The position numbers and the translations under genes were made by a program. The notes below the pieces were generated by a model, which saw only the letters and a program-made list of their open reading frames with translations, searched no databases and had not been told where the DNA came from. Of a DNA stretch of 64,000 nt, positions 27,492 to 41,420 are shown piece by piece; positions within the stretch are counted from its first letter, which is position 1; each line of letters begins with the position of its first letter. Source of the DNA: Escherichia coli (GTDB taxonomy: Bacteria; Pseudomonadota; Gammaproteobacteria; Enterobacterales; Enterobacteriaceae); assembly GCF_003018115.1 (NCBI RefSeq), contig NZ_CP027457.1. One strand, 5' to 3'.

Positions 27492-27810
27492 AGTAGTCTC
27501 CTGAGGTTTTATTAGAATCATTATGTTTGAGCGTAGCGTTGGTATCGCTACCAGGCGCGTGAATGTTACCCCATTTTATGTATGGACATGTAGTGAAAAC
27601 TACAACCTTGCCGTTCGCTTTGGCATCATTTTCATTATAAAGACGGAATTTTGCATCAGCTTCTCATCAAGAAAAACAACTAAAAAATCAATCACAATAC
27701 TTGTGCATTTCTTTAAACAGTTTTTAAAAACTGACTCCGGGTATGGAGCTATGGGTATTTTCTGTACCCAATGCTTTTAACAGCAATTAATTTCATAGGA
27801 TGAAAGCTCA

Positions 27811-30402: not shown

Positions 30403-30463
30403 TAACAGACAATAAACAGGCCGTGATGTGTCGCGGTCTGTTTATCGAATTAAATGCAGATAT

Positions 30464-30495
30464 AAAAAAACCAACCTTTACGGTTGGTTTTTTTT
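30464..30495. terminator. Bidirectional hairpin terminator (yejO end; probably the original proL terminator displaced by the island)
   Basis: AAAAAAA-CCAACC-tttac-GGTTGG-TTTTTTTT. On the minus strand it directly follows the partial tRNA 3'-end repeat. Confidence 0.7.
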
Positions 30496-30517
30496 GGGAT
30501 TTTTGGTCGCACGAGAG
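30496..30517. repeat. Island-distal att repeat (partial copy of tRNA-Pro 3' end)
   Basis: GGGATTTTTGGTCGCACGAGAG versus GGCGATTTGGTCGGCACGAGAG at 41337-41358. Confidence 0.75.
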
Positions 30518-30578
30518 TAGTTTAATTGAACGTGTAACTTAATGATTTAAAAGAATGAGTCTGATTCAACTTTTAAGC

Positions 30579-30602
30579 CGTATAACCAAACGTATAGCTA
30601 AA
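30579..30602. promoter_or_regulatory. Tandem 12-mers CGTATAACCAAA CGTATAGCTAAA (candidate integrase arm-type sites, distal arm)
   Basis: Same motif and orientation as CGTATAACTAAA CGTATAACTAAA at 41189-41212 next to int. Confidence 0.55.
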
Positions 30603-30772
30603 TTTATTTGCTGAAAAAATGTACAATTTAGAGTCAGATTTTCCCAGATGTTTAATTTATAAAACGAAGCTGGCGGCTGTTCTCTGATATGTGGATCCCC
30701 ATATCTGGAACCCTACCGGAATTTTTTTCCGGTTACCCTTTAATCAGGCTGGTGGGCTTTACCTGTTCGGTA

Positions 30773-30795
30773 GGTATGATCATTATGATCATACC
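30773..30795. repeat. Perfect 23-bp palindrome GGTATGATCAT-T-ATGATCATACC
   Basis: 11-bp arms read directly from the sequence. The nearby hairpin ACCGGAA-ttttt-TTCCGGT lies at 30715-30733. Confidence 0.9.
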
Positions 30796-30848
30796 TTTCG
30801 CCCCAATGGGAGGTAAAAGCGCCAACTGGACGGTTAAACCGTCTTTTT

Positions 30849-30883
30849 GTCACATCGTGTCACTGGTTGTCACTCTCCGTCAC
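30849..30883. repeat. Four GTCAC repeats with exact 10-bp phasing
   Basis: GTCACatcgt GTCACtggtt GTCACtctcc GTCAC, starting at 30849, 30859, 30869 and 30879. Preceded by hairpin GACGGTT-a-AACCGTC plus TTTTT. Confidence 0.9.
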
Positions 30884-30910
30884 GATGTCCGCTCGCCTGG
30901 CTGTAAATCA

Positions 30911-31139
30911 AACTACGAAATTTTCGTAGTTGTGAGTAAGCCCCAAAATATGGGGATTACTCTTACTACCCAAACTACGGGTAGTTTCCGTAGTTTCATA
31001 GTCGAGTTGCAGATCTGCAACTCCCCCACCAGCCAGCGCAATTTTGCGCTTTGCTTTAAGTTCAGCGAGTTACAGCGCCGACTTCCTCAAATTGAGGTTG
31101 CCGGAAATATCAACCAGTTACGAGGCTCAAAATTGAGCC
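30911..31139. repeat. Train of seven short palindromes/hairpins in non-coding DNA
   Basis: 30911-31 AACTACGAAAtTTTCGTAGTT; 30941-55 CCCCAaaataTGGGG; 30972-87 AAACTACggGTAGTTT (plus CGTAGTTT at 30989-96); 31004-23 GAGTTGCAGATCTGCAACTC (perfect 20-mer); 31035-50 AGCGCAAttTTGCGCT; 31085-97 CCTCAAaTTGAGG; 31124-39 GGCTCAAaaTTGAGCC. Confidence 0.9.
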
Positions 31140-31156
31140 GCCTTTAAATCAACACG

Positions 31157-31438
31157 TTACCGCCGTAACCGCTCCGGCTTCTTCCAGTTGTACGTAATTT
31201 TCTCTTTCTCCCTGTACATCTCTACACGGCGATTGTAGGCCAGCATTTCAAGAACGCGGATCCGTATGTCGCGCATATCAACGCCATTAAGTTCTATACC
31301 ATCACGGCGCATCACCTCCACCACTACACGCACATAATTATCTGCGGTCATGCTGTCCGGCTGCGTGGCCTGTTCGTCAACCTGCTGGCTGATTCCGGCG
31401 ACGCGGCGGATTAATCCCAGTATTTCGGCTTCTGTCAT
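31157..31438 (-). CDS. Hypothetical island protein (93 aa)
   Basis: ORF with ATG preceded by a G-rich SD-like stretch. Follows repeat copy 1. No recognisable motif. Confidence 0.5.
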   Translation of the reverse strand: MTEAEILGLIRRVAGISQQVDEQATQPDSMTADNYVRVVVEVMRRDGIELNGVDMRDIRIRVLEMLAYNRRVEMYREKEKITYNWKKPERLRR

Positions 31439-31475
31439 TGTGCCCCCATCGCGCTGGTGAAGAAAACAAGCTCAG

Positions 31476-31690
31476 ATTTTTTGTAAAGAATCTGTCACGC
31501 TAAAAGATGTCGAACAAAAAACAACCTTCTTCATCATCTTTTTTACATCAAAGCAATTAAAAACAATCACTTACGAACATGATGATGATGACGATAAAAT
31601 CAAAAAAATGCGTTTTTTTCCGCGCCGCCCGCCCCGTGTTCAGGCCCACCCCACCAGGAGGACCCGCAAAAAAGGCGGCTGGTGCCGCCT
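31476..31690 (-). repeat. Copy 1 of ~215-bp island repeat (terminator + G-rich cos-like core + A/T tracts)
   Basis: Aligns block by block with 34015-34228. Shared blocks: TTTTTGTAAA, GAACAAAAAACAACC, ATAAAATCAAAAAAATGCG, TTTTTCCGCGCC, CCGCCCCGTG, CAGGCCC..CCCCACCAGGAG and the terminator hairpin. Confidence 0.85.
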
Positions 31691-31695
31691 TGTTG

Positions 31696-33585
31696 TCATA
31701 GTGAATCGGTACCGCCTGATTTGACCATACCGCGATAATCCAGAGCTGCCACACCTGCATCAATACGGACTTTCCAGGCCACGCCGTCAACGATAAAACC
31801 TTCCTGCTGTTCAAGGTAAGGCTCGTCATTGCCATCAAGATAAGCCACCTCGATTGTGTCCGTTCCCTGTGCGGAAAGCATGTACCATTGTTTTTCGCTG
31901 ATATCATCAAGGCGGGGATCGACGATGATATCAAGTAGCTTGTGGTACGGGTTAAAGATCCCGCTGTTTTTATCAGCCCCGAAAGGTGCGGTTGAGTTAA
32001 TCATCTGCAACGCGCGATCTTCCAGTGCTGCCGGAACTAAAAGGAATTTAGGCGCAATATTCAGCACTTCGCCATTTTTGTCCTTCTGTGTGCGCATCAG
32101 GTGACGTGCTGCACTAAGTCCCGGTGTTGTCAGTCCTGCTTCAATCAGGTTGCTGTGTTTTTTGTCAAACAGCGTTATTCCGTCAGAAAGTTTTACGTTG
32201 CCTGTAAGCACCAGATTAACCAGATTTCCCACCGTTCTTGATGCTGCACGGCCCATAGCCATTGGCACCGTTGATAACTGATCAAGGTCATCATTGATTA
32301 TCGCCTGGCGGGTAATGCTGAAAATATTCCCGTAAGTAGCCAGCGCGATGGGTTCACCGCGATCGCTGGTGGTGATGTATTTATATTCTGCCCCTTCCGG
32401 CACTTTGTTTAACGTTGAGAAGCCATTCATACCAACGCGGCGGGCTTCCCGGAAGTTTGAAAGGGAACCTTTTTTCGTCCACTGGCGGAATGTTTCGCCG
32501 CTGTGCTCCCAGCCTGCAAGCACTGATTTTTCAGCGCCACCAGCAAGGATATCGGTAAAATCGCTGCTGCTGTGGGTGAATGCCGCGTTTACTATCTGCG
32601 AGCGTGTGCCGTAGCTGCCCGTGCTTATACCACGATGGGTTAATGATGCCTGTGCCATATCGAAAAGGCTCATCATGGCGTAAGGATTACCGCGTTCGGC
32701 CCGTTCGTGACCAAGACGCGCATTAAGCCCCTGACGCATGGCATCGCCGGTTATATTGCCGTTATCCGTGTACGCGTAGTAAAGATTTGCGGGGGTGGTT
32801 TTGTTTGTTGGCGTTGATTCTTTACCCATAGCGAGTAAAAGGCGTTCGCGTGCATTCTCAACGCTACATTCTGAATCCGCAAGACAACTTATAGCCAGGT
32901 CGTTATATCTTCCGTTGAAGGTGCCAAACAATTCACGGATTCCGTTAAGTCGTTCCTGTTCGCCACTGCCAGTTTTCTGGCTGATCATGCTTTTAATTTT
33001 TTCCGGCATATTTGAAAAATCTCCGATTCGTTTTGATTCAATTCGGGCCATTGCTGTAATCGCGGGTATAACCTCATCTGCGAAGCCGTTAGCCTTACAC
33101 TCATTGCCATCCATCCAGGTTTCCGCCTCCATCATTGAGGTGATCTCCTGTTTGCTCCTGCCCGTTCTTCCGGCATAGGTTTCTGCCATCGTGTCGCCCA
33201 GCTTGTCCATCAGATCAGCAAAGCGGCGAACGTCGCCCGACACTCCGGCAGTAACACCACGGGGGGCATGTATCATCATCATCGCGTTTTCAGGCATAAC
33301 GATGTGATCTCCACACATGGCAATAAACGACGCCATAGAAGCCGCCATGCCTTCAATGTGTACGATTTTTTTTGCCGGATGATTTTTCAGGGCGTTATAG
33401 ATAGCCAGCCCTTCAAAGATGTCGCCACCAGGTGAATGAATGCTCAGATGGATTTCAGACGCATTACCACACGCGTTGATCTCGTCAGTAAGTGCCGATG
33501 CTTTTACACCGTACCCGCCGATCTCGTCATAAATGCGCACATAGACAACATCTGCCATAGCCTTAATGGAAAACCATGTTTTCAT
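31696..33585 (-). CDS. ClpP-family prohead protease fused to phage major capsid protein (629 aa)
   Basis: N-terminus: IHSPGGDIFEGLAIYNAL..GMAASMASFIAMCGD..MMMIHAPRG (ClpP/S14-like Ser and His motifs). The C-terminal ~330 aa resembles HK97-fold/Mu gpT-like capsid proteins (..ALATYGNIFSITRQAIINDDL..WYMLSAQGTDTIEVAYLDG..). Assignment is from memory of the family, not from a search. Confidence 0.75.
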   Translation of the reverse strand: MKTWFSIKAMADVVYVRIYDEIGGYGVKASALTDEINACGNASEIHLSIHSPGGDIFEGLAIYNALKNHPAKKIVHIEGMAASMASFIAMCGDHIVMPENAMMMIHAPRGVTAGVSGDVRRFADLMDKLGDTMAETYAGRTGRSKQEITSMMEAETWMDGNECKANGFADEVIPAITAMARIESKRIGDFSNMPEKIKSMISQKTGSGEQERLNGIRELFGTFNGRYNDLAISCLADSECSVENARERLLLAMGKESTPTNKTTPANLYYAYTDNGNITGDAMRQGLNARLGHERAERGNPYAMMSLFDMAQASLTHRGISTGSYGTRSQIVNAAFTHSSSDFTDILAGGAEKSVLAGWEHSGETFRQWTKKGSLSNFREARRVGMNGFSTLNKVPEGAEYKYITTSDRGEPIALATYGNIFSITRQAIINDDLDQLSTVPMAMGRAASRTVGNLVNLVLTGNVKLSDGITLFDKKHSNLIEAGLTTPGLSAARHLMRTQKDKNGEVLNIAPKFLLVPAALEDRALQMINSTAPFGADKNSGIFNPYHKLLDIIVDPRLDDISEKQWYMLSAQGTDTIEVAYLDGNDEPYLEQQEGFIVDGVAWKVRIDAGVAALDYRGMVKSGGTDSL

Positions 33586-33776
33586 AGCCAGGCTCCTAAC
33601 GTTGCCTGGTACCAGTATTCAACCGCGCTGCGTGTGATTTGTCCTTTCGTGGGCACTGGCATACCCGGGTGATTATCTTTGATGAACTGCTGATAGCGTT
33701 CGATCTTCTCCATAGTTCCGGCGTCTATGTGCACAGTGGCACTTTTATCCGGCTTTCTGGTGTTGTTCTCTGGCAT
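33582..33776 (-). CDS. Small protein (64 aa from second Met), possibly ribbon-helix-helix-like, translationally coupled to the capsid fusion
   Basis: GGAGG lies 7 nt before the ATG at 33776 (MPENNTRK..). The stop overlaps the capsid-fusion start (ATGA). The pattern TVHIDAGTMEKIERY..TKGQITRSAVEYWY suggests a beta-alpha-alpha fold. Confidence 0.55.
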   Translation of the reverse strand: MPENNTRKPDKSATVHIDAGTMEKIERYQQFIKDNHPGMPVPTKGQITRSAVEYWYQATLGAWL

Positions 33777-33970
33777 AAATCCGCCTCCGTTTTGATTAAC
33801 GGGCATCATTATTGATCGATAAAAGTAATAGATAAATCATTTTCTACCTGAAAATCAGATTATGTTTTTTCTGATTATCCTCAGAGAGGCAAAGCCATTG
33901 ACGCATTTTTGCTATTGAAGCAATATTAAGACTCGTCATCCTGGCGATAAAAACTCCTTTGTCGTGTAAA

Positions 33971-34008
33971 AGCGCCTCCGGTAACAGCAATCGGGGGCGC
34001 TTTTTTTT
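33971..34008. terminator. Strong hairpin flanked by A8/T8 in the leader of the capsid operon (bidirectional terminator-like)
   Basis: GCGCCTCCG-11 nt-CGGGGGCGC (9 bp, one G.T) followed by TTTTTTTT on the plus strand. On the minus strand the same stem is followed by TTTTAC. Confidence 0.6.
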
Positions 34009-34014
34009 GCGCCT

Positions 34015-34228
34015 GTTTTTTGTAAATGTTTTCGGGAACGTTCCAGTGATGAACAAAAAACAACCCGATTCGACACTAAAAATTTTTATTCCTCAATATA
34101 TCAATAGCTTATAGTGGTGGTGATGGTGCCATAAAAATCAAAAAATGCGCCTTTTTCCGCGCCCCTCCGCCCCGTGGACAGGCCCCCCCCACCAGGAGTA
34201 CCTACAAAAAAGCCGGATTGCTCCGGCT
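34015..34228 (-). repeat. Copy 2 of ~215-bp island repeat
   Basis: See copy 1. The terminator AGCCGGA-ttgc-TCCGGCT plus a T-run (minus strand) lies immediately after the PerC-like gene. Confidence 0.85.
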
Positions 34229-34234
34229 GTGTGA

Positions 34235-34507
34235 TTAGCTGTCTTGGTAATTACACCATATTTCATCGCTTACACCATCTATACCCATTTCAGCATAAGT
34301 GCGATCTACTGCCTTTCTCAGGTCTCCGAAGTTATCCGGCGGCTCCGGTGGCCTCTGTGCCTTCCTGGAACATTCCAGCCGTCGCATCGTAACCTGATGC
34401 CGTTCCTTGTCTGTCTCCACCAGCTGCATGACTTCACCCCATCGCGCCGCCGCCCTCCGGTAAAATCCTTTCGCCTCGAGTTCCTCCGCTATGCGGTCAT
34501 GTATCAT
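34235..34507 (-). CDS. PerC-family-like transcriptional regulator (90 aa)
   Basis: The N-terminal pattern IAEELEAKGFYRRAAARWGEVM resembles the AE.LE..G..RRAA.RW signature I recall for PerC/Pch proteins. Confidence 0.5.
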   Translation of the reverse strand: MIHDRIAEELEAKGFYRRAAARWGEVMQLVETDKERHQVTMRRLECSRKAQRPPEPPDNFGDLRKAVDRTYAEMGIDGVSDEIWCNYQDS

Positions 34508-34772
34508 CGCCTGACTCTCCGGTTTTTACGTTGATGGTTGTTACCTGTTCCGCTTCGGCAATCTCCCGTTCTGTCAACGTGGCAAAGTTTGCCGCCGCTG
34601 TGGTCATGAATGCGCTTATCAGTTCGGGATGCTCCTTCGCGTATCCTTCCCCCGCGTGGCGGTCTATTACCCTGATTGCCACCTTTAAGGCGTGCTCTGT
34701 CATGTCTAACGCTTTATATTTCGGCTCTGTTCTGTCTCTGCGCATTTTGGTTATCTCCTCACTCATGCTCAC
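34497..34772 (-). CDS. Hypothetical island protein (91 aa, GTG start)
   Basis: ORF overlaps the downstream gene by 11 nt. Part of the tightly packed operon. Confidence 0.5.
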   Translation of the reverse strand: MSMSEEITKMRRDRTEPKYKALDMTEHALKVAIRVIDRHAGEGYAKEHPELISAFMTTAAANFATLTEREIAEAEQVTTINVKTGESGDDT

Positions 34773-34958
34773 TTTTACACCTCACTTTTTAAAGCGTCTC
34801 GCTTCGTCTCACTTGATATTTTTTGATGCTTTATGTGTGTGTTTCATAAGGATTTTTTTACTCCTCACTTTTGAGCATGTATACAGGTGAGAAAGTGAGT
34901 AATCGTGTTAATATTTTGTAAAAACCTCACCATTACTCACTTTTGCTACTCACTTTTT
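34758..34958. repeat. Iteron cluster (CTCACTTTT family) flanking an AT-rich core: candidate island replication origin
   Basis: CTCACT(T) copies at 34758, 34768, 34781, 34808, 34864, 34936 and 34949; CTCACC at 34926; inverted GGTGAG/AAAGTGAG at 34886-34899. The AT-rich stretch is 34815-34862. Lies immediately 3' of the replication ATPase gene. Confidence 0.6.
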
Positions 34959-36366
34959 ACAGTGGTCCTACATCATCACCATCAATGTAAATCACGGCGT
35001 CTTTTTCCAGTTTGGCTAACCATCGCCGCATATTTTTCACGTCATACCCAAGCCGTTTCATGTCATCACGTAACAGCGGGATCGTGCACTTGTCGCCGTT
35101 CTGTGTGCGTGAACGGATGCACCCCCATAGTGCGGTATGGTTTTCCGTCTTGTTGCCTGCCTCCTCGATGCGTTCCAGTTCAACGGGAGGGCGCGGCTTA
35201 TCCACCACCACCAGCGACGTGATTAACTCCCCGTCAGCGTCGGTAAACAGCTCCACCACGCGTAAGTCATATGCGGCTTCTTTGAGTTCCTCCGCGTCCT
35301 TCATTTTGGTGCATGAGATAACCAGCGCTTCGCTTCCTGCGTCCTCCCTGCGTATCCGGTATTCAGCATCCAGTGATGCACGAAATGCACTGGAACCGCG
35401 CGCGCCTTTCGTCTCATCCTTGCCGGAATGGTGAACCACCAGCACCGTGGCCCCTGTGCGTCGTTTCAGTTCGTCACAACCACGGATAAACGCCCCCATA
35501 TCACGGGAATCATTTTCATCATTCCCACCAAAGCAACGCGCCAGCGTATCCAGAATAATCATGCGTACAGGTTTACCCGTTTCCCGCTCCACCTGACGGG
35601 CAGCGATAACCATTTCATCAACATCAAGCGGGACCGCCGGAAAGATGGGACGGTTTACCAGATACAGATTTTTCACCTGCTCACCGTGCACAACCTCCCA
35701 GGCTTTTACACGACGCGGAACGCCGATACCGCCTTCACCAACCACATAGAGAACAGCGCCATGCGCCACCCTGCGGCCTCCCCACTGGCGGCCCGTGGAA
35801 ACGTGACACGCCCACGATCCGGCAAGGAATGATTTATAGGAACCGCTCGCCCCGTATATGCTGCAAAGCGACGATGCCGGAATAATCCCCTTTACCACGT
35901 AATCAAGCTGTGTGTCGTATCCGGTAGATCCAACGCTCATCGGTAGCGTGGTTTTTCGCTGGGGGATTTTTTTCATGACCAGGCTTTCCCCGCGTTCCCA
36001 TGCCTCCCTAAGCCGTGGAAGCTGGTCGCTCCATTCCTCCAGCAATTCGAAATTTTCAGAAAGTAGCCGCGCCTCCTGGACTCCGGCGATCGCCAGTTTC
36101 GTGGCGATGGTTAACAGCTGCGGCTCTTCAATATTTCCGGCGCGTATCACCGTCGCCCTGTATCGCCCATCATCAACAATCTGGAGGTTATCCAGTTTGC
36201 TTAACTGATAACGCCCCAGATAAACGGGAGGGACTGGATCGCCTGCTTTTTTGGCCTGTGCAATGATGTAATGCTCTGCGAATGAGTGAGCATCAATACC
36301 CGCAAAAATAATCGCATCGGTGTATTTATCTTTCGGTAATCGTTTTACGTTCGGTGCCAGTTTCAT
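34957..36366 (-). CDS. Replication ATPase, RepA/AAA_25 (RecA-like helicase) family, 469 aa
   Basis: Walker A GASGSYKS, Walker B RMIILDT and VVHHSGKD motif, typical of RepA-like helicases of plasmids and satellites. N-terminal ~140 aa unassigned. No zinc-finger or Toprim primase motifs seen. Confidence 0.7.
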   Translation of the reverse strand: MKLAPNVKRLPKDKYTDAIIFAGIDAHSFAEHYIIAQAKKAGDPVPPVYLGRYQLSKLDNLQIVDDGRYRATVIRAGNIEEPQLLTIATKLAIAGVQEARLLSENFELLEEWSDQLPRLREAWERGESLVMKKIPQRKTTLPMSVGSTGYDTQLDYVVKGIIPASSLCSIYGASGSYKSFLAGSWACHVSTGRQWGGRRVAHGAVLYVVGEGGIGVPRRVKAWEVVHGEQVKNLYLVNRPIFPAVPLDVDEMVIAARQVERETGKPVRMIILDTLARCFGGNDENDSRDMGAFIRGCDELKRRTGATVLVVHHSGKDETKGARGSSAFRASLDAEYRIRREDAGSEALVISCTKMKDAEELKEAAYDLRVVELFTDADGELITSLVVVDKPRPPVELERIEEAGNKTENHTALWGCIRSRTQNGDKCTIPLLRDDMKRLGYDVKNMRRWLAKLEKDAVIYIDGDDVGPL

Positions 36367-36662
36367 TTTTTACCCCTGAATCCGTTAATCATGGTTTTCA
36401 GCTTCTGGATGTTTGCCCGTGCCCTGGCGTTGCTGGTGGGCACGTTATGCGGCGCGGTCTGTACCAGAGAAAAATCACGCCGGAACTGATAAACAGGCAT
36501 CACGCAATCATATTCGTAACCTTCACGGCGGTAAGTTACGCACCGTCCCGCCACGCCCTTAATCATTACCGTGCCGCCGTACTGGTCGCGGTAAATATCA
36601 CCGCGCGTAAATTTAGGGTGAGTGTTGCCACTGGCAGTTAAGCCAGAATATTTAAGTTTCAT
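36363..36662 (-). CDS. Small protein, DUF4222-like (99 aa)
   Basis: The pattern YRDQYGGTVMIKGVAGRCVTYRREGYEYDCVMP resembles remembered DUF4222 proteins found upstream of satellite replication genes. ATGA overlap with the ATPase gene. Confidence 0.45.
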   Translation of the reverse strand: MKLKYSGLTASGNTHPKFTRGDIYRDQYGGTVMIKGVAGRCVTYRREGYEYDCVMPVYQFRRDFSLVQTAPHNVPTSNARARANIQKLKTMINGFRGKK

Positions 36663-36667
36663 TATTT

Positions 36668-36901
36668 TTATTCTCCGGTGTGCTGTTCGTTATATCTGTC
36701 GTGCAATGTCTCTATTTCCTGCAACTCATTTATTACAGGCTCAAGAAGCGTTATTAATGCCGTGGCAATTCTTGATTTTTGTTTGTCGCGTTCATTGTCG
36801 CCAAGTGTTTCAAGCCATATGCGCAATATTTCCATCATATTTTCACTGTGAGAAAGTGCAAGAAATACGCGATCTGTTGTTTCGTGGTAAATATCACGCA
36901 T
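36668..36901 (-). CDS. Hypothetical small helical protein (77 aa)
   Basis: ORF packed 1 nt after the upstream stop. Confidence 0.5.
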   Translation of the reverse strand: MRDIYHETTDRVFLALSHSENMMEILRIWLETLGDNERDKQKSRIATALITLLEPVINELQEIETLHDRYNEQHTGE

Positions 36902-36902
36902 A

Positions 36903-37124
36903 TTAATTACCGTCCGTTGTTTTTCTTAAAACAGCTTCTGTCACGAAATCGGCATAGTTAGCGGCAATATCAAGAATATTTAGCCCTGTATCTCTGTGCT
37001 CATCAGTGCAAAGAAAGAAAAAAGCCACCCGCATAATTTCAGATATTGACGAAAGCGCATCAGCCGCATCATCAGGAACGCCGGAAAATTCTTGTTTCAG
37101 GGAATAAAAACGATCATCACGCAT
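36903..37124 (-). CDS. Hypothetical small protein (73 aa from MRDDRFY)
   Basis: The ATG at 37124 overlaps the upstream stop (ATGCGTGA) and is preceded by a GGGGGGG SD-like run. Confidence 0.5.
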   Translation of the reverse strand: MRDDRFYSLKQEFSGVPDDAADALSSISEIMRVAFFFLCTDEHRDTGLNILDIAANYADFVTEAVLRKTTDGN

Positions 37125-37356
37125 AACCCCCCCCATTTTCACAATCAGTAATCAGGATGGTTTTAGCCTCATTCAGTGCCATATCAGCACTAAATTGCAT
37201 AACAGCCAGTGAGTGAGGAACGAAAGCCCCGGTATATTCTGTTTCGCTGGTGGCGTGCTTATGTGCCCTGTCCGCGATAACAGAAATATCAATCAGCGCG
37301 TGCATCAGCGTTTTGATGGCTTCGGCGGCTGCGTCCGGTGTGGTTTTATTGTGCAT
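37117..37356 (-). CDS. Hypothetical small protein (79 aa)
   Basis: ORF overlaps the upstream ORF by 11 nt. Confidence 0.5.
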   Translation of the reverse strand: MHNKTTPDAAAEAIKTLMHALIDISVIADRAHKHATSETEYTGAFVPHSLAVMQFSADMALNEAKTILITDCENGGGYA

Positions 37357-37675
37357 AAAGCATCCCCTGAATATTCGTGTTAATCATTCCGGCACGTTTT
37401 GTGATTTCCTGTAATGATTCCCTTGTGGCGACAATTGCTTCATCTGGTAAGTGGTAATTACACACCACGCGACCTTTATCCACATTGACCAGTAGCTGCC
37501 CTGTGAATTTCTCACGAAACTGAATGCGGTTAAGGTCAGTAAGTGACAGATTAATAATGGCGCACCTCCTGACGAATACGGGCGGCAAATACAGCAACAC
37601 AACCGGACGGGCAACGGTTACGCGCTTCGCGTTCCGTCCAGGCGGTGACGTGGATGATTTGAGATTCTCCGGCAC
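37346..37675 (-). CDS. Hypothetical protein, start uncertain (109 aa from GTG 37675; ~71 aa if initiated at ATT 37558 after AGGAGG)
   Basis: Long open frame overlapping the icd-like ORF out of frame. A strong AGGAGG (37570-37565) has no canonical start codon at proper spacing, only ATT. Confidence 0.4.
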   Translation of the reverse strand: MPENLKSSTSPPGRNAKRVTVARPVVLLYLPPVFVRRCAIINLSLTDLNRIQFREKFTGQLLVNVDKGRVVCNYHLPDEAIVATRESLQEITKRAGMINTNIQGMLYAQ

Positions 37676-37748
37676 TCAGGGCCAGAAAACGCCACACAAA
37701 GGCAGTTTGTGTGTGTACAAGGTGTGGTATATGATTTACGGCAACCAT
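37551..37748 (-). CDS. Small protein (65 aa), tentatively Icd-like (host cell division inhibitor family)
   Basis: GAGGAG SD 5 nt before the ATG. First gene of the leftward operon. The pattern FVWRFLALS..IIHVTAWTEREARNR..VFAARIRQEV resembles my recollection of Icd-like proteins of P4-like elements. Unverified. Confidence 0.5.
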   Translation of the reverse strand: MVAVNHIPHLVHTQTAFVWRFLALSAGESQIIHVTAWTEREARNRCPSGCVAVFAARIRQEVRHY

Positions 37749-37812
37749 AACGGCTCCTCGTTTACGTTGTTGGTTAGAAGCCCCGTTACTGCTCCTACAG
37801 TGCGGGGTTTCG
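37742..37812 (+). ncRNA. Candidate small RNA A (cis-antisense to the RBS/start of the icd-like gene)
   Basis: Promoter-like TTGTGT (37707-12) -17 bp- TATGAT (37730-35). Hairpin GCCCCG-17 nt-CGGGG (37780-37807) followed by TTTCGTCGTTTC. A homologous unit lies at 38453-38565. Confidence 0.35.
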
Positions 37813-37837
37813 TCGTTTCAACACCTTGCCTAAATAA

Positions 37838-37891
37838 GGTGTTGAACACCAATTTAAATCGAGGTGTTAAACACGTCAAGTGTTGAACACT
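37838..37891. promoter_or_regulatory. Three palindromic operators (GGTGTTGAACACC family) overlapping divergent promoter-like hexamers
   Basis: 37838-50 GGTGTTgAACACC (perfect); 37863-75 GGTGTTaAACACG; 37879-91 AGTGTTgAACACT (perfect). Minus strand: TTGACG (37879-74) -17- TAAATT (37856-51). Plus strand: TTGAAC (37883-88) -17- CATACT. Confidence 0.6.
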
Positions 37892-37940
37892 TATTTTTTT
37901 TCCTGCATACTGCATTTGTTTTTTATGAGGGGTGCTCAAC

Positions 37941-38120
37941 ATGGCGACAAAAGCAGTAAACGCAAAATCACAAACAGTTGCGGCAAGGGTTCCACATGAA
38001 GTTATGAACAATGTTGAGGCGGTAAAAATGCCCGGCGAAAGTACAGGGCAGTTTGTTACAGCTGCATTAAAGCGGGAAGTTGAATACCGCCAGCGTCGCA
38101 AGGCCAAAGAATCAGAATAA
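37941..38120 (+). CDS. Ribbon-helix-helix DNA-binding protein 1 (59 aa)
   Basis: ATG preceded by GAGGGG. TVAARVPHEVMNNVEAV..STGQFVTAALKREV fits a beta-strand/helix/helix (CopG/Arc/MetJ) layout. Confidence 0.65.
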   Translation: MATKAVNAKSQTVAARVPHEVMNNVEAVKMPGESTGQFVTAALKREVEYRQRRKAKESE

Positions 38121-38177
38121 TCACTATCAGCGCCGTGGTGTGAGGTACTACGGCGCATTGCTTTACAGGGCAGTATC

Positions 38178-38405
38178 ATGACCAACAACACACTATCACC
38201 AATACAAGACACGCAAACGCAAGATGATGAAATCATCCGGCAAAGGCAGTCAGAAGCCTGCGCCAGACTTGAGGAAGAACTAACCAGAACAAAAATACCA
38301 CCACCAGCGCCGCGCTTAGTGCCACCAGAAAAATTTGCCCTTGAAGATTTTGTCGATAAATACCCACGGCGGCTTAAATCCGGCAAAAACCGACCGCCTG
38401 GCTGA
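38178..38405 (+). CDS. Small protein (75 aa), paralog of 38856..39059
   Basis: MTNN.. start. Shares the motif F.L(E/D)(D/E)F(V/L).KY.R with the second copy. Confidence 0.5.
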   Translation: MTNNTLSPIQDTQTQDDEIIRQRQSEACARLEEELTRTKIPPPAPRLVPPEKFALEDFVDKYPRRLKSGKNRPPG

Positions 38406-38487
38406 GTGCACAAAACCGAACTATGAAACGGATTATTCCGTTTCCGGGGCGTTTGTGTGTGTATAAAGAGTAAGCTATGCTCTTTTA

Positions 38488-38565
38488 TAGCCATAATCGT
38501 TACCTCAATTAATGGTTTGGTTAGACGCCCCGTATGTGAGCCACCACTGCGGGGCGTTGTTTTTT
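38488..38565 (+). ncRNA. Candidate small RNA B (homolog of RNA A with a strong intrinsic terminator)
   Basis: TTGTGT (38453-58) -17 bp- TATGCT (38476-81). TTGGTTAGA, then stem ACGCCCCG (38525-32) / CGGGGCGT (38550-57), then TTGTTTTTTG. Confidence 0.4.
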
Positions 38566-38583
38566 GTATAACGGTAAGTACAA

Positions 38584-38624
38584 TGGTAATTACCATGTAA
38601 CTATAGTAATTAAGGGTAATTACC
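38584..38624. promoter_or_regulatory. Palindromic operators GGTAATTACC (x2, plus a degenerate middle copy) at the RHH-2 start
   Basis: TGGTAATTACCA at 38584-95, AGTAATTAAG at 38605-14, GGTAATTACC at 38615-24, abutting the ATG at 38625. Confidence 0.55.
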
Positions 38625-38798
38625 ATGTCAACACCATTGGAAAAGCGATCGCCTCCATACCAAATGCGGCTACCAGAAGAATTCAGAGCACAACTTGAAG
38701 AGGCAGCGAAAGCAGACGGTGACACTTCTTTAGCCACCTGGATCAAGCGAGTACTCCGAAAAGAATTACAGCAACGCGGTATTGAACCCAAAGGATAA
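38625..38798 (+). CDS. Ribbon-helix-helix (Arc-like) DNA-binding protein 2 (57 aa; below the ORF-track cutoff)
   Basis: Manual translation gives MSTPLEKRSPPYQMRLPEEFRAQLEEAAKADGDTSLATWIKRVLRKELQQRGIEPKG. The MRLPEE..L..AA...G.S....I pattern is typical of Arc/MetJ-type repressors. AAGGG SD lies 8 nt upstream. Confidence 0.6.
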   Translation: MSTPLEKRSPPYQMRLPEEFRAQLEEAAKADGDTSLATWIKRVLRKELQQRGIEPKG

Positions 38799-38855
38799 AA
38801 AACATCAGCGCCGTGGCGTGAGGAACTCCGGCGCATTGCTTTACAGGTACACACA

Positions 38856-39059
38856 ATGACCAACAAAGAATCAACCAATACACCATCGCAAAAAACGAAC
38901 AGAGAGCACGAAAATATGGCGTTCGAGCATGAATCAGAAAGATTCGCACCATGCGCTTTTGTCCTTGATGAGTTTCTAAAAAAATATTCACGTTCTGAAC
39001 GGATGAAAATGGCAGCACAATACGGCCCCAACAAGCAAGATAATTGCCCACCAGCCTGA
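38856..39059 (+). CDS. Small protein (67 aa), paralog of 38178..38405
   Basis: MTNK.. start with FVLDEFLKKYSRSERMK motif. Preceded by the conserved 44-nt hairpin block. Confidence 0.5.
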   Translation: MTNKESTNTPSQKTNREHENMAFEHESERFAPCAFVLDEFLKKYSRSERMKMAAQYGPNKQDNCPPA

Positions 39060-39127
39060 TCGCGGTTATCATGCCCGGGCTTATGATTGTTGACACATAC
39101 GGCGCAGCGGGTTAATTGTTCAGAAAG

Positions 39128-39156
39128 GTGGCTCCATTTCGGGGCCGCTTTTTTTA
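39128..39156 (+). terminator. Rho-independent terminator ending the rightward RHH operon
   Basis: GGCTCC-atttc-GGGGCC stem, then GC and TTTTTTT. Confidence 0.6.
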
Positions 39157-39180
39157 TGTTCATCATTTGCCCTATATATG

Positions 39181-39387
39181 TTAAGCGGTCGTTCCGCGCG
39201 CTTCTTGTTCGCGTTCTTTCATCCATGCGATTACGTCTTCCTCATACCATCCGCGACGGCGCAAACCGACACGAAAACCCTGCGGGAATTCTCCGGCGTT
39301 GATCATGCTTTGCAGCGTGCTGTCTGCCTTAATGTGGATAAGTTTTTTTACTTCCTGGCGAAAGATGACTTTTTTGATTGCTTCCAT
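39181..39387 (-). CDS. AlpA-family phage regulatory protein / excisionase-like (68 aa)
   Basis: The pattern ..LIHIKADSTLQSMINAGEFPQGFRVGLRRRGWYEEDVIAWM.. matches the MerR-like wHTH AlpA/Xis family signature (R.v.W...dV..W). Confidence 0.8.
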   Translation of the reverse strand: MEAIKKVIFRQEVKKLIHIKADSTLQSMINAGEFPQGFRVGLRRRGWYEEDVIAWMKEREQEARGTTA

Positions 39388-39406
39388 CGTGATTTACCTC
39401 ATTAAT

Positions 39407-39488
39407 CCGGTGTATTCCGGTGAGAAATACGGTAAATCATCGGATGCAGGGAAAAACAGTACTCACCGTTTTTAAACGGTATACACCG
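39407..39488. promoter_or_regulatory. Nested inverted repeat across the alpA promoter region
   Basis: CCGGTGTAT (39407-15) and CCGGTGAG (39417-24) pair with CTCACCG (39462-68) and ATACACCG (39481-88). Confidence 0.55.
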
Positions 39489-39520
39489 TTTTTTATATTG
39501 ATGATTTGAAAGGGATTTAT

Positions 39521-39546
39521 AAAAAAAGCGGCATTTCTGCCGCTTT
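39521..39546 (-). terminator. Rho-independent terminator after orf83
   Basis: Minus strand: GCGGCA-gaaa-TGCCGC followed by TTTTTTT. Confidence 0.7.
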
Positions 39547-39554
39547 CAGGATTG

Positions 39555-39806
39555 TTACCGCCATTTTTTTGGCCTGCCTCCGGTCTTCATGGATGCCGGA
39601 CGTACAACCTTATCAATACTTACAGCCAGATTTCTGGAAGCCCCACGGGATACCAGGAAATCTACTACCTGTTTTTTTGATGGGGCCGTCGTTCTGTCCT
39701 CCGGATCGTAGGTTGACCAAAATTCATGCTGAACCATCAGGGCCAGTTGCAGCCCGTCGCAATTGCATCTGAAATTTGTTTGCATCTTAACAGTTTCATT
39801 TTTCAA
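39555..39806 (-). CDS. Hypothetical protein (83 aa) downstream of int, basic C-terminus (GGRPKKWR)
   Basis: ORF between int and its terminator. No confident family assignment. Confidence 0.45.
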   Translation of the reverse strand: MKNETVKMQTNFRCNCDGLQLALMVQHEFWSTYDPEDRTTAPSKKQVVDFLVSRGASRNLAVSIDKVVRPASMKTGGRPKKWR

Positions 39807-39883
39807 GGCCTCGTCGTTAAATGTGATGCAATTATACGACGGTTTTAAATGGTTTTCGTAGTTTTTACTGGTTTTCTGTACAG

Positions 39884-41125
39884 CTAAACGGCTCGGATAC
39901 CCCTTTTACCACTGGCGAGGGTTACGCCCGTCGCCGCAGCCTCGACAAATTCGCCCCACCAGCGCATAAGCACGATGCGTTTTTCTATGTAGTTGCTCCG
40001 GTTGTATGCCCGTCTGACTTCGTTGGTGTCGACGTGGGCAAGTGCGGCCTCTATTACGTCCGGCTCAAAGCCTTCTTCGTTCGCTGCTGTGCTGAATATG
40101 GCGCGTAATCCATGAGACACCAGCACGCCAGCGAATCCCATGCGTCGTAATGCTGCGTTAGCGGTCTGGCTGTTCATCGGCTGCTGTGGGTCTTTCAGAC
40201 TCGGGAAAACATAATCGCGGTGGTGGCTGATTGGTTTCATAGCCTCCAGCACTGCCATAGCCTGGTCACAAAGCGGGATAACGTGGTCGCGGCGCATCTT
40301 CATGCGTCCGGCGGGTATGGTCCAGCGTTGCGCTTCCATGTCGATTTCTTCCCAGCGTGCCGACGATGCTTCAACGGGACGGGTTACGGTCAGTAACTGC
40401 CATTCAATCAGTAATCTGGTCTGCCGTTCTGTTGCCGATACTGATAAAGCCTGCATAAGCTCCGGCAGCTGTTCGGGGCGGATTGTTGGCATATGTTTTT
40501 TTACAGGGGAGGGGAACGCCTTACGCACATTCATAGCCGGATTGGCATCAATCATCCCACTATTGGCGGCGTAATCCATTACCTCATTTATACGCTGTAA
40601 AACTCGCTTGAGCGTTTCCAGGTTGCCACGTTCCTTGATGGGGGTAAGCACCTCAACGAACCTGCGAGCGGTCAGGGTGTCTATTGGCGTGTTGCCGATG
40701 AACGGGAATACATATTTTTCCAGCGATCGCCAGATGTCTTTAATCGTATTGGGGGCCAGATTCTGGCTGATTTTCACCTGGTACCATGCTGTTGCCACAT
40801 TTTCGAACGTGTTCCCTTGTCTTCGGGCCTCTGTCTCTCTTTTTTGCCTCTCGTGGTCCTGCGGGTCAGTTCCGGCACGAATTAACGCCCTGTACTCGCT
40901 ACGGCGTTTTCTGGCATCAGCCAGGGAAACATCATCAAGCGATCCAAAACTCAGCAATATTCTTTTTTTGTCCGATGGTCGGTAGTAGGAAAATCTCCAG
41001 AGTTTTGATCCGGACGGTTTGATCAGGAGAAAAAGCCCTCCGCCGTCCTGTAGGGTGTATTCCTTTTCTGCTGGTCTGGCTGCTTTGATCTGTACTGTGG
41101 TTAATGGGGGTGTTTTTCTCGCCAT
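39884..41125 (-). CDS. Tyrosine integrase, P4-type (413 aa)
   Basis: N-terminal DUF4102-like arm-binding region (LTTVQIKAARPAEKEYTLQDGGGLFLLIKPSGSKLWRF). C-terminal catalytic motifs (HGLRAIFST..AHVDTNEVRRAYNRSNY). Adjacent to the tRNA. Confidence 0.92.
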   Translation of the reverse strand: MARKTPPLTTVQIKAARPAEKEYTLQDGGGLFLLIKPSGSKLWRFSYYRPSDKKRILLSFGSLDDVSLADARKRRSEYRALIRAGTDPQDHERQKRETEARRQGNTFENVATAWYQVKISQNLAPNTIKDIWRSLEKYVFPFIGNTPIDTLTARRFVEVLTPIKERGNLETLKRVLQRINEVMDYAANSGMIDANPAMNVRKAFPSPVKKHMPTIRPEQLPELMQALSVSATERQTRLLIEWQLLTVTRPVEASSARWEEIDMEAQRWTIPAGRMKMRRDHVIPLCDQAMAVLEAMKPISHHRDYVFPSLKDPQQPMNSQTANAALRRMGFAGVLVSHGLRAIFSTAANEEGFEPDVIEAALAHVDTNEVRRAYNRSNYIEKRIVLMRWWGEFVEAAATGVTLASGKRGIRAV

Positions 41126-41156
41126 ATGCTTATGATTCCAAACGAAAAAACAGGGT

Positions 41157-41212
41157 TTTAGTTATACGGCTTTAGTTATACGTCAGCCCGTATAACTAAA
41201 CGTATAACTAAA
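41157..41212. promoter_or_regulatory. Four 12-mers (2 direct TTTAGTTATACG + 2 inverted CGTATAACTAAA) upstream of int
   Basis: Copies at 41157-68, 41171-82, 41189-200 and 41201-12. Same motif as 30579-30602 at the other island end. Confidence 0.6.
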
Positions 41213-41215
41213 AAA

Positions 41216-41336
41216 TCCGGCTGATAGCTTATAAATCCGGTGATGTTCGGTGACTAAAAACCATAAAAAAACCCGCCAATCAAGTAATTGGCGGGCTATC
41301 CCTGTCTTATTCGATGATTTCCGGTGGTATCCGGTG
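41216..41336. promoter_or_regulatory. Cluster of TCCGGTG-type motifs between int and the att core
   Basis: TCCGGCTG at 41216, TCCGGTG at 41236, TTCGGTG at 41246, TCCGGTG at 41320 and 41330. The same heptamer occurs twice in the alpA promoter (39406-39424). Confidence 0.5.
41264..41295 (-). terminator. Rho-independent terminator downstream of proL (supplied by island DNA)
   Basis: Minus strand: CCCGCCAAT-loop-ATTGGCGGG followed by TTTTTTT. Confidence 0.7.
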
Positions 41337-41358
41337 GGCGATTTGGTCGGCACGAGAG
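41337..41358. repeat. tRNA-proximal att repeat
   Basis: GGCGATTTGGTCGGCACGAGAG. Pairs with 30496-30517. Confidence 0.75.
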
Positions 41359-41420
41359 GATTTGAACCTCCGACCCCCGACACCCCATGACGGTGCGCTA
41401 CCAGGCTGCGCTACGTGCCG
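41344..41420 (-). tRNA. proL: tRNA-Pro (anticodon GGG)
   Basis: Reverse complement is CGGCACGTAGCGCAGCCTGGTAGCGCACCGTCATGGGGTGTCGGGGGTCGGAGGTTCAAATCCTCTCGTGCCGACCA (77 nt, encoded CCA, T-loop GGTTCAAATCC, U-GGG-G anticodon loop). Confidence 0.93.

What the first reader, a model, noticed from the sequence alone, without database searches (positions are those of the whole stretch)
37838..37891. Three GTGTTGAACAC-type palindromes overlapping face-to-face promoter hexamers: a compact bidirectional switch
Seen: operators are centred at 37844, 37869 and 37885. The middle one lies in the spacer of the leftward TTGACG-17-TAAATT promoter. The right one covers both the leftward -35 and the rightward TTGAAC -35 that precedes the RHH-1 gene. 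Established: RHH repressors (Arc, Mnt, CopG) bind short palindromes as dimers of dimers. Inference: RHH-1 represses the replication operon and also autoregulates.
Basis: partly seen in the sequence, partly recalled or inferred. Interest (0 to 1): 0.5.

Follow-up and report, generated by a model that had tools for sequence, protein, structure and literature searches.

The report
Repressor switch of a phage satellite
Three copies of an 11-bp palindrome lie on two divergent promoters of a phage-satellite island in an enterobacterial (E. coli-like) chromosome, and comparison with about 40 related islands shows that the palindrome sequence changes together with the DNA-reading strand of the small protein encoded next to it, so this is very probably a repressor/operator switch that silences the satellite's replication genes.

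Summary
GTGTTNAACAC occurs exactly three times in 64 kb, all within 52 bp (0.05 expected by chance). The middle copy fills the spacer of a leftward TTGACG-17-TAAATT promoter, the left copy covers its predicted start, and the right copy contains the rightward TTGAAC hexamer. Two corrections: the promoters are back-to-back, not face-to-face, and the right copy abuts the leftward -35 rather than covering it.

The adjacent 59-aa gene belongs to the uncharacterised YlcI/YnfO family. Its predicted structure matches ribbon-helix-helix (RHH) proteins.

The decisive evidence is comparative. About 35 of some 42 related islands from Enterobacterales keep the same promoter hexamers and the same site positions. 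The 11-mer core differs in about 13 classes, all copies within an island change together, and each class goes with a particular beta-strand sequence. Two predictions from the strand were met and three new strands brought new triplets. Neighbouring Icd-like and AlpA genes do not track the operator.

The island is a capsid-encoding PICI-type satellite. Published work names only the activator AlpA and calls a global repressor "unclear".

Verdict: a real RHH repressor/operator immunity cassette, mechanistically classical but apparently undescribed in this family and setting. No binding or transcript data exist.

The parts
37839..37849 (.). Operator O1, GTGTTGAACAC (13-bp perfect palindrome GGTGTTGAACACC, 37838-37850). 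It lies just downstream of the leftward -10 and covers the predicted leftward transcription start.
   Evidence: The equivalent site is present at about -102 to -98 from the RHH start codon in most related loci.
37864..37874 (.). Operator O2, GTGTTAAACAC, in the spacer of the leftward promoter.
   Evidence: The equivalent site sits at -77/-78 in nearly all related loci and is always followed directly by (C/T)GTCAA or TTCAA, the leftward -35.
37880..37890 (.). Operator O3, GTGTTGAACAC (AGTGTTGAACACT). It contains the rightward -35 TTGAAC and abuts the leftward -35.
   Evidence: A site at this position occurs only in the TTGAA class (window, L002, L006; degenerate in L003). Other classes carry the third site just after the rightward -10 instead.
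37851..37879 (-). Leftward promoter P_L: -35 TTGACG (37879-37874), 17-nt spacer, -10 TAAATT (37856-37851).
   Evidence: Scan. The same geometry is called in an E. coli relative (L038). TCAA of the -35 is invariant in 20 aligned relatives.
37883..37911 (+). Rightward promoter P_R: -35 TTGAAC (37883-37888), 17-nt spacer, -10 CATACT (37906-37911).
   Evidence: Read. At 8 of 12 matches it is below the scan threshold. A, T, A, T and G at 37907-37912 are invariant or nearly so in 20 aligned relatives.
37941..38120 (+). RHH-1 gene (59 aa, MATKAVNAKSQTVAARVPHE...), the proposed repressor. A GAGGGG ribosome-binding site lies at 37927-37932.
37749..37846 (-). 5' leader of the leftward operon. It has a 5' hairpin (37817-37846), a main hairpin (37780-37808), an invariant UCUAACCA (37771-37778) and a small hairpin presenting the ribosome-binding site (37749-37768).
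   Evidence: 12 of 17 predicted pairs carry compensatory changes in 20 sequences. One search shows the 5' hairpin in relatives. No Rfam family matches.
37551..37748 (-). First gene of the repressed operon: an Icd-like protein (65 aa).
   Evidence: NCBIfam phage_ICD_like, E = 5e-18. RefSeq annotation of an identical stretch.
34235..37558 (-). Rest of the leftward operon: small ORFs, DUF4222 (36363-36662), a RepA-type helicase (34957-36366) and PerC (34235-34507).
38130..38156 (+). Terminator-like hairpin after RHH-1. It is conserved after RHH-2 as well (38808-38846).
38440..38846 (+). Second, tandem cassette. It comprises a remnant Icd-like start and leader hairpin, GGTAATTACC palindromes (38585-38594 and 38615-38624), RHH-2 (38625-38798) and the same trailing hairpin.
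   Evidence: RHH-2 hits: Pfam Arc E = 0.008, PHROG 'Arc-like repressor' E = 5e-7, YlcI_YnfO_N E = 5e-4.

Best explanation
The 52-bp stretch is the operator region of a small immunity-type cassette in a capsid-encoding PICI-like phage satellite integrated at tRNA-Pro.

Proposed mechanism. The 59-aa ribbon-helix-helix protein encoded at 37941-38120 binds three GTG-N5-CAC sites. The most economical reading is one dimer per 11-13-bp site, with its beta-ribbon reading the central five bases. Bound at O2 (promoter spacer) and O1 (transcription start), it blocks RNA polymerase at the leftward promoter. That silences the Icd-like / DUF4222 / RepA-helicase / PerC operon and keeps the island quiescent. 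Bound at O3, it occludes the -35 of its own promoter, giving negative autoregulation, and also crowds the adjacent leftward -35.

Expected properties. The cassette (operators plus RHH gene) is exchanged as a unit between islands at conserved flanks and exists in at least 13 specificity classes. It should therefore also set which incoming satellites a resident island can silence.

Shown here: the sites, their excess over chance, their positions relative to conserved promoter hexamers, the RHH fold, and the concerted co-variation of operators with the beta-strand.

Inferred: binding itself, the sign of regulation, the stoichiometry, and the release mechanism. Release might come from a helper-phage anti-repressor, or from AlpA-driven leftward transcription running antisense through the convergent RHH gene.
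For: Sites and promoters. There are three exact copies against 0.05 expected. They sit on the spacer, the +1 and a -35 of two promoter-like elements.

Conserved architecture. An alignment of 20 related intergenic regions shows invariant TCAA (leftward -35), invariant ATA.TG (rightward -10) and invariant TG of the operator arms, while the operator cores differ.

Co-variation. An unsupervised search for the best repeated 11-mer finds sites at about -100, -77 and -32 in 26 of 32 loci, with the window and its two closest relatives carrying an extra or alternative site at -61. The cross-matrix of class consensus against locus is block-diagonal with the beta-strand sequence: QT[VLI]AA with GTGTTGAACAC, [KR]KLEA with GTGTCAGCCAC, QSLKS with GTGTGGCCCAC, KRFDV with GTGTC[CG]GACAC, QKLQ[AT] with GTGGACTCCAC, QKMSA with CTGGCACCCAG, QKIHA with GTGGAACACAC.

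Prospective test. The E. coli KKLEA and Salmonella KRFDV proteins had the predicted triplets; in Salmonella the leftward gene is a KilA-N protein rather than Icd-like. The new strands QALRA, QSVTA and KKIDV came with new triplets GTGTAGACCAC, GTGTAAGACAC and GTGTCAGACAC.

Cassette exchange. L002 (Edwardsiella) has an identical RHH over 57 aa and identical operators but only 42% Icd-like and 52% AlpA identity. L045 shares L002's left flank up to AAGGTG and then switches core. The same Icd-like type occurs with different operators.

Second cassette. The tandem cassette in the window repeats the design with different palindromes and a different RHH.

Context. The gene order int(-), AlpA(-), RHH(+), then the divergent leftward replication operon recurs in every look-up.
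Against: - No experimental binding, footprint or transcript-start data exist for this element.
- The rightward promoter is weak by consensus (8 of 12), and most relatives have no recognisable -35.
- Operators and gene are physically linked, so part of the correlation is co-inheritance. The argument rests on the concerted change of the separate copies and on the discordance of the other neighbours.
- One pair (L030 and L032) has the same strand QKIQA but different operators, so the strand is not the only determinant.
- Published work on these satellites shows induction through the activator AlpA and reports no repressor (PMC6092414; 10.1101/2022.09.08.507074).
Confidence: 0.75

Rival explanations
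1. RHH-1 does bind the sites, but it is not the maintenance repressor of the island. It could be a Cro-like or late-phase modulator, a purely autoregulated small regulator, or a Mnt-like factor whose main effect is to favour its own promoter by shutting the competing one. The quiescent state would then be set mainly by the absence of AlpA.
For: The literature attributes induction of Gram-negative PICIs and cf-PICIs to AlpA alone. The two -35 hexamers are 3 bp apart, so promoter competition is plausible. Most relatives have no -35 for the rightward promoter.
Against: In almost every relative, two of the three sites lie on the spacer and the start of the leftward promoter. That is the geometry of tight repression of that promoter. 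The RHH gene occupies the position of cI or Stl, divergent from the replication operon.
Confidence: 0.15
2. The palindromes are bound by a different protein (AlpA, the Icd-like product, RHH-2 or a host factor), and RHH-1 is a bystander.
For: No direct binding data exist. Other small DNA-binding proteins are encoded nearby.
Against: Operator class follows the RHH-1 strand. It does not follow Icd-like type, AlpA type or the identity of the leftward gene. RHH-2 has its own distinct palindromes. A host factor could not explain about 13 sequence classes within one host family.
Confidence: 0.06
3. The repeats are not protein operators. They could be replication-origin iterons, packaging signals or RNA-level hairpins, or RHH-1 could be the antitoxin of a toxin-antitoxin pair.
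Against: The sites keep fixed positions relative to promoter hexamers. The downstream ORF has no family hit, and several relatives have a different gene or none after the RHH gene. Classes with asymmetric cores cannot form hairpins.
Confidence: 0.04

Closest known systems
Phage P22 immI region (Mnt and Arc ribbon-helix-helix repressors at the divergent Pant/Pmnt promoters)
   Same: A small RHH repressor is encoded divergently from the operon it silences. Short symmetric operators overlap closely spaced divergent promoters, and autoregulation is built in. The beta-strand register of RHH-1 aligns with Arc Q9/N11/R13 (Arc contacts are from established knowledge).
   Different: There is no detectable sequence homology. 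Here three separate 11-bp sites spaced 25 and 16 bp apart replace a single 17- or 21-bp operator bound by a tetramer. The repressed operon encodes an Icd-like protein and replication genes, not an antirepressor. The host element is a satellite, not a phage.
CopG (pMV158) and omega (pSM19035) plasmid RHH repressors
   Different: CopG is co-transcribed with the rep gene it controls and binds one 13-bp element. Omega binds runs of contiguous 7-bp heptads. Here the regulator is divergent and its sites are discrete 11-mers.
Stl/Rpr master repressors of Gram-positive PICIs (SaPIs)
   Same: The regulator is encoded divergently from the excision/replication operon of a phage satellite, in the regulatory zone next to int. 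It may play the same role of keeping the island silent (PMC6092414).
   Different: The fold is unrelated (this statement about Stl rests on my own knowledge). The RHH gene points towards int and alpA rather than being co-directional with int. Derepression by a helper protein is untested. The literature on Gram-negative PICIs names AlpA as activator and calls a repressor 'unclear'.
Lambdoid immunity regions (cI/Cro with OR/OL, heteroimmune groups)
   Same: Repressor gene and operators are exchanged as one cassette at conserved flanks, giving many specificity classes. Three operator copies lie on divergent promoters.
   Different: The protein is RHH rather than helix-turn-helix, and no second (Cro-like) protein is known to share the sites.

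Membership tests
Ribbon-helix-helix (Arc/MetJ/CopG) superfamily | N-terminal beta-strand followed by two helices (beta-alpha-alpha topology) | tested here: met
Ribbon-helix-helix (Arc/MetJ/CopG) superfamily | Glycine-containing G-x-S/T/N turn between helix A and helix B | tested here: met
   G32-E33-S34 is invariant and T35 nearly invariant in 38 homologues. That this motif is typical of RHH proteins is established knowledge.
Ribbon-helix-helix (Arc/MetJ/CopG) superfamily | Sequence match to a curated RHH family or to a solved RHH structure | tested here: not met
   No Pfam RHH family matches at E <= 0.1. No RHH protein appears in the PDB profile search at E <= 10. hhalign against Arc gives probability 5%, E = 0.008. 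Only the paralogue RHH-2 bridges weakly (Arc E = 0.008; YlcI_YnfO_N E = 5e-4).
Ribbon-helix-helix (Arc/MetJ/CopG) superfamily | Homodimer whose paired strands enter the major groove of repeated sites | not testable with these tools
   Only monomer prediction was possible. Indirect support: the strand positions in Arc's base-contact register (12, 14) co-vary with the operator core.
YlcI/YnfO family (NCBIfam NF041551) | Score above the curated cut-off of the family model | tested here: met
   59.7 bits against a cut-off of 30, E = 2e-16. RefSeq names the identical protein 'YlcI/YnfO family protein'. The K-12 namesake ylcI shows no comparable triple site upstream.
Gram-negative PICI / capsid-forming PICI satellites | Small island with int and alpA at one end, a replication module (primase/helicase) and, for cf-PICIs, its own capsid genes, but no tail or lysis genes | tested here: met
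   The window carries int 39884-41125, AlpA-like 39181-39387 (PHROG excisionase/regulator 1.4e-7; Pfam AlpA below cut-off), RepA-type helicase 34957-36366 and a ClpP-capsid fusion 31696-33585, next to tRNA-Pro. An island sharing the identical 701-bp switch carries major capsid, decoration and small terminase genes. Absence of tail genes was judged only from the ORF list.
PICI master repressor (Stl/Rpr type) | Keeps the island silent and is inactivated by a helper-phage protein | not testable with these tools
   Only position and operator geometry are available. The literature gives no repressor for these islands.
Type II toxin-antitoxin RHH antitoxin | Adjacent, co-transcribed toxin gene | tested here: not met
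   The downstream 75-aa ORF has no Pfam, NCBIfam or PHROG hit. The gene after the RHH differs or is absent in several relatives.

The most novel reading that the evidence does not exclude
The YlcI/YnfO-type RHH protein is the long-sought master repressor of Gram-negative PICIs and cf-PICIs. Its 13 or more operator-specificity classes define satellite immunity groups. Induction then requires that AlpA-driven antisense transcription, or a helper-phage anti-repressor, defeats it. The natural set of strand/operator pairs would also amount to a readable RHH recognition code.
Probability: 0.4. Interest if true: 0.7.

Novelty: new member of a known kind. Interest (0 to 1): 0.5.

Why it matters
- It assigns a concrete, testable function (sequence-specific repressor) to a protein family annotated only as "YlcI/YnfO family protein", function unknown.
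- It points to a repressor layer in Gram-negative phage satellites. Published work describes only the activator AlpA and states that a global repressor is unclear (PMC6092414).
- About 13 natural protein/operator pairs differ mainly at two strand positions and five operator bases. They offer a compact system for studying RHH specificity and for building orthogonal repressors.
- The cassette structure predicts immunity groups among satellites that share hosts.

Tried and rejected
- Rfam on 9 kb and on the 261-bp intergenic region found no family for the leader, in particular no C4/CI-type immunity RNA.
- A PDB sequence-profile search returned only chance hits. Foldseek against PDB returned nothing useful.
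- Pfam gave no RHH hit for RHH-1.
- Relaxing the operator pattern to 2 mismatches gave chance-level hits only (37 against 27 expected). This includes one over the RHH-1 ribosome-binding site and ATG (37932-37942), which cannot be told from chance.
- The toxin-antitoxin reading was rejected because there is no conserved partner gene.
- AlpA or the Icd-like protein as the binder was rejected on discordance with operator class.
- I tried to find the prototype EcCICFT073 island by fetching 49 kb of CFT073, but the stretch held the icd prophage instead. The presence of the cassette in the published prototype islands was therefore not checked.
- K-12 ylcI was inspected for the same design and none was found.
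- Literature searches for YlcI/YnfO, cf-PICI with repressor, and RHH with PICI found no description of this switch. The library lacks most subscription papers.

Full report
**1. The observation**

The pattern GTGTTNAACAC occurs exactly three times in the 64-kb window, at 37839-37849, 37864-37874 and 37880-37890. Chance expectation is 0.05, and none of 100 dinucleotide-preserving shuffles reached three. Allowing one mismatch adds only two distant hits, which is the chance level. With two mismatches the count is 37 against 27 expected. With their flanks the three copies read GGTGTTGAACACC, GGTGTTAAACACG and AGTGTTGAACACT.

The promoter scan calls one sigma-70-type site in 37400-38300. It lies on the minus strand: TTGACG (37879-37874), a 17-nt spacer, then TAAATT (37856-37851).
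- The middle palindrome (O2) fills most of that spacer.
- The left palindrome (O1) begins two bases after the -10 and so covers the expected start near 37844.
- The right palindrome (O3) contains TTGAAC (37883-37888), which lies 17 nt upstream of CATACT (37906-37911).

That rightward pair matches only 8 of 12 consensus positions and was not called by the scan.

Two details of the finding need correction. O3 abuts the leftward -35 rather than covering it. The promoters are back-to-back, with -35 hexamers 3 bp apart, not face-to-face.

**2. The context**

The window carries an island of about 13.7 kb between narP and tRNA-Pro(GGG)/yejM. Its genes are:
- integrase, 39884-41125 (minus strand);
- an AlpA-like gene, 39181-39387 (minus);
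- four small plus-strand ORFs, 37941-39059;
- a leftward operon: Icd-like gene (37551-37748), small ORFs, DUF4222, a RepA-type helicase (34957-36366) and PerC;
- further left, a ClpP-protease/capsid fusion (31696-33585) and an AIDA-type autotransporter.

The 701 bp around the finding are 100% identical to part of an E. coli island that RefSeq annotates with major capsid, head decoration and small terminase genes. Parts of the stretch occur in 1404 of 5426 complete E. coli genomes. The element is therefore a PICI-type, capsid-encoding phage satellite.

**3. The protein**

The gene at 37941-38120 encodes 59 residues. It meets the NCBIfam model YlcI_YnfO_N (59.7 bits, cut-off 30) and PHROG 949, function unknown. 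It has no Pfam hit and no PDB sequence relative.

In the family alignment N7, K9, S10, R16, H19 and G32-E33-S34 are invariant. Positions 12 and 14 are among the most variable. A weak profile alignment places residues 12, 14 and 16 opposite Arc Q9, N11 and R13. These are the base-contacting residues of Arc, which is established knowledge.

The family is small. Only 81 representatives at 50% identity, out of 1.84 billion proteins, reach E <= 0.001. The loci recovered are nearly all from Enterobacterales.

**4. The comparative test**

Thirty-six loci encoding relatives were fetched from one genome per species. Eleven more came from exact-protein look-ups.

Most of them share one architecture. A site lies at about -100 from the RHH start codon. 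A second lies at -77 and is followed directly by the leftward -35 (CGTCAA on the plus strand). A third lies at -32, immediately after a conserved rightward -10, TATACT.

In the 20-sequence alignment the invariant columns are the TCAA of the leftward -35, the ATA.TG of the rightward -10 and the TG of the operator arms. The five central operator bases differ between lineages. Within each locus all copies carry the same core.

The cores sort with the RHH beta-strand:

| Strand residues 11-15 | Operator |
|---|---|
| QT[VLI]AA | GTGTTGAACAC |
| [KR]KLEA | GTGTCAGCCAC |
| QSLKS | GTGTGGCCCAC |
| KRFDV | GTGTC[CG]GACAC |
| KKIDV | GTGTCAGACAC |
| QKTSV | GTGnnGGACAC |
| QKLQ[AT] | GTGGACTCCAC |
| QKIHA | GTGGAACACAC |
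| QKMSA | CTGGCACCCAG |
| QALRA | GTGTAGACCAC |
| QSVTA | GTGTAAGACAC |
| AQKKI (distant Klebsiella protein) | GTGGGGGTACAC |

Two of these were predictions made before the DNA was fetched, and both were met: KKLEA in E. coli and KRFDV in Salmonella. Three were new strands that brought new concerted triplets.

Linkage alone does not explain the pattern.
- L002 (Edwardsiella) shares a 100% identical RHH and the same operators with the window, but its Icd-like and AlpA proteins are only 42% and 52% identical.
- L045 has the same left flank as L002 up to AAGGTG and then a different core and strand.
- The Salmonella loci have a KilA-N gene in place of the Icd-like gene yet keep the predicted operators.
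- One Icd-like type occurs with three different operators.

The single exception is L030 against L032. They have the same strand, QKIQA, but different operators; their N-terminal arms differ.

**5. What is particular to the window**

In the GTGTTGAACAC class the autoregulatory site has moved. The window and L002 have a full copy at the rightward -35 (O3) and none at -32. L006 has both. L003 has a degenerate O3 and a good -32 site. Because TTGAAC inside the palindrome resembles a -35, the operator itself supplies the hexamer.

The extra partial copy at 37817-37827 pairs with the left arm of O1. Most relatives of all operator classes have a short hairpin at this position in the predicted leader. 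I therefore read it as RNA structure rather than as a fourth operator.

**6. Mechanism proposed**

RHH-1 dimers would occupy O2 and O1 and exclude RNA polymerase from the leftward promoter, silencing the Icd-like/replication operon. At O3 they would occlude the -35 of their own promoter. The cores are asymmetric in many classes and the sites are 16-25 bp apart. One dimer per site is therefore more economical than the dimer-of-dimers picture. This is inference.

How repression is lifted is unknown. alpA lies upstream on the same strand as the replication operon and is convergent with the RHH gene in every locus examined. AlpA is required for induction of such islands (for cf-PICIs, PMC6092414). 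AlpA-driven antisense read-through and a helper-encoded anti-repressor are the two obvious candidates.

**7. Comparison with what is known**

The design is closest to the P22 immI Mnt/Arc region and to plasmid RHH repressors such as CopG and omega. In position it resembles the Stl/Rpr repressors of Gram-positive PICIs. It is not a sequence member of any curated RHH family. It is a member of the uncharacterised YlcI/YnfO family.

The papers I could read on Gram-negative PICIs and cf-PICIs do not mention this protein as a regulator. [quoted passage not shown] Another notes a variable gene of unknown function downstream of alpA (10.1101/2025.02.11.637232). A third lists YlcI/YnfO merely as a prophage-associated protein of cf-PICIs (PMC13612085).

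**8. Verdict**

It is a new member of a well-known kind of switch. Its added interest is the large set of co-varying specificities and its bearing on how Gram-negative satellites are kept silent.

Noticed in passing
window 38440-39059: A second, tandem copy of the cassette. It has the same flanks as 37700-38260 (Icd-like start remnant, leader hairpin, trailing hairpin, 'ATGACCAACAA' start of the next small ORF). The centre differs: an Arc-like RHH-2 (38625-38798) and its own palindromes GGTAATTACC at 38585-38594 and 38615-38624. On the minus strand TTGACA(38632-38627)-17-TACTAT(38609-38604) has one palindrome in the spacer and one at about +1. The Icd-like gene here is truncated. This leftward promoter would therefore fire antisense through the 38178-38405 ORF and RHH-1, a possible regulatory hierarchy. 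An E. coli relative (L038) has a variant RHH-2 with a different palindrome (ATGTGTATATACACAT).
   Followed up: partly
window 37749-37846, minus strand: A conserved structured 5' leader of the Icd-like operon. It has a GC-rich hairpin (37780-37808), an invariant UCUAACCA, and a small hairpin that presents the ribosome-binding site. CCA of the invariant motif is predicted to pair with the start codon region. Twelve of 17 predicted pairs show compensatory changes in 20 sequences. No Rfam family matches, not even C4/isrK, which detect P4-type immunity RNAs.
   Followed up: partly
L038 1335-1371 (equivalent to window 37780-37808), plus strand: Read on the plus strand, the leader hairpin is followed by a T-run and is called as an intrinsic terminator. 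It might stop antisense transcripts coming out of the Icd-like gene before they reach the operators, or mark the end of an antisense RNA.
   Followed up: no
L030 and L032, about 100 to 30 bp upstream of the RHH gene: Two Xenorhabdus loci encode the same beta-strand (SQKIQARA) but carry different operator triplets (GTGGAGTACAC and CTGGATTCCAG). Their N-terminal arms differ (INNKS and INKKS). Residues outside the strand therefore also contribute to specificity.
   Followed up: no
L004 and L005, upstream of the RHH gene: Two loci encode a QTLAA-type RHH with only one palindrome (ACTGTCGAACAGT) after a CATACT -10, and a completely different sequence to the left. No leftward promoter or Icd-like gene is present. 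This looks like a solo, purely autoregulated copy.
   Followed up: no
L050 (E. coli K-12 DLP12 prophage, ylcI at 580251-580445): The namesake YlcI lies in the late region of a lambdoid cryptic prophage next to nohD and shows no comparable triple site upstream. The repressor role proposed here may therefore hold only for the satellite branch of the family.
   Followed up: partly
window 27600-41420: The island is inserted at tRNA-Pro(GGG), between narP and yejM. As cargo it carries an AIDA/pertactin-type autotransporter (27811-30402) and a PerC-family regulator (34235-34507). It encodes a ClpP-protease/major-capsid fusion (31696-33585).
   Followed up: partly
window 37932-37942: GTGCTCAACAT, a 2-mismatch relative of the operator, overlaps the ribosome-binding site and ATG of RHH-1. 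It cannot be distinguished from chance (37 such hits in the window against 27 expected).
   Followed up: yes
window 37736-39226, minus strand: A 496-aa open reading frame runs antisense through both RHH cassettes. It starts inside the Icd-like gene region and has no support as a gene. It is probably an artefact of composition or of the duplicated cassette.
   Followed up: no
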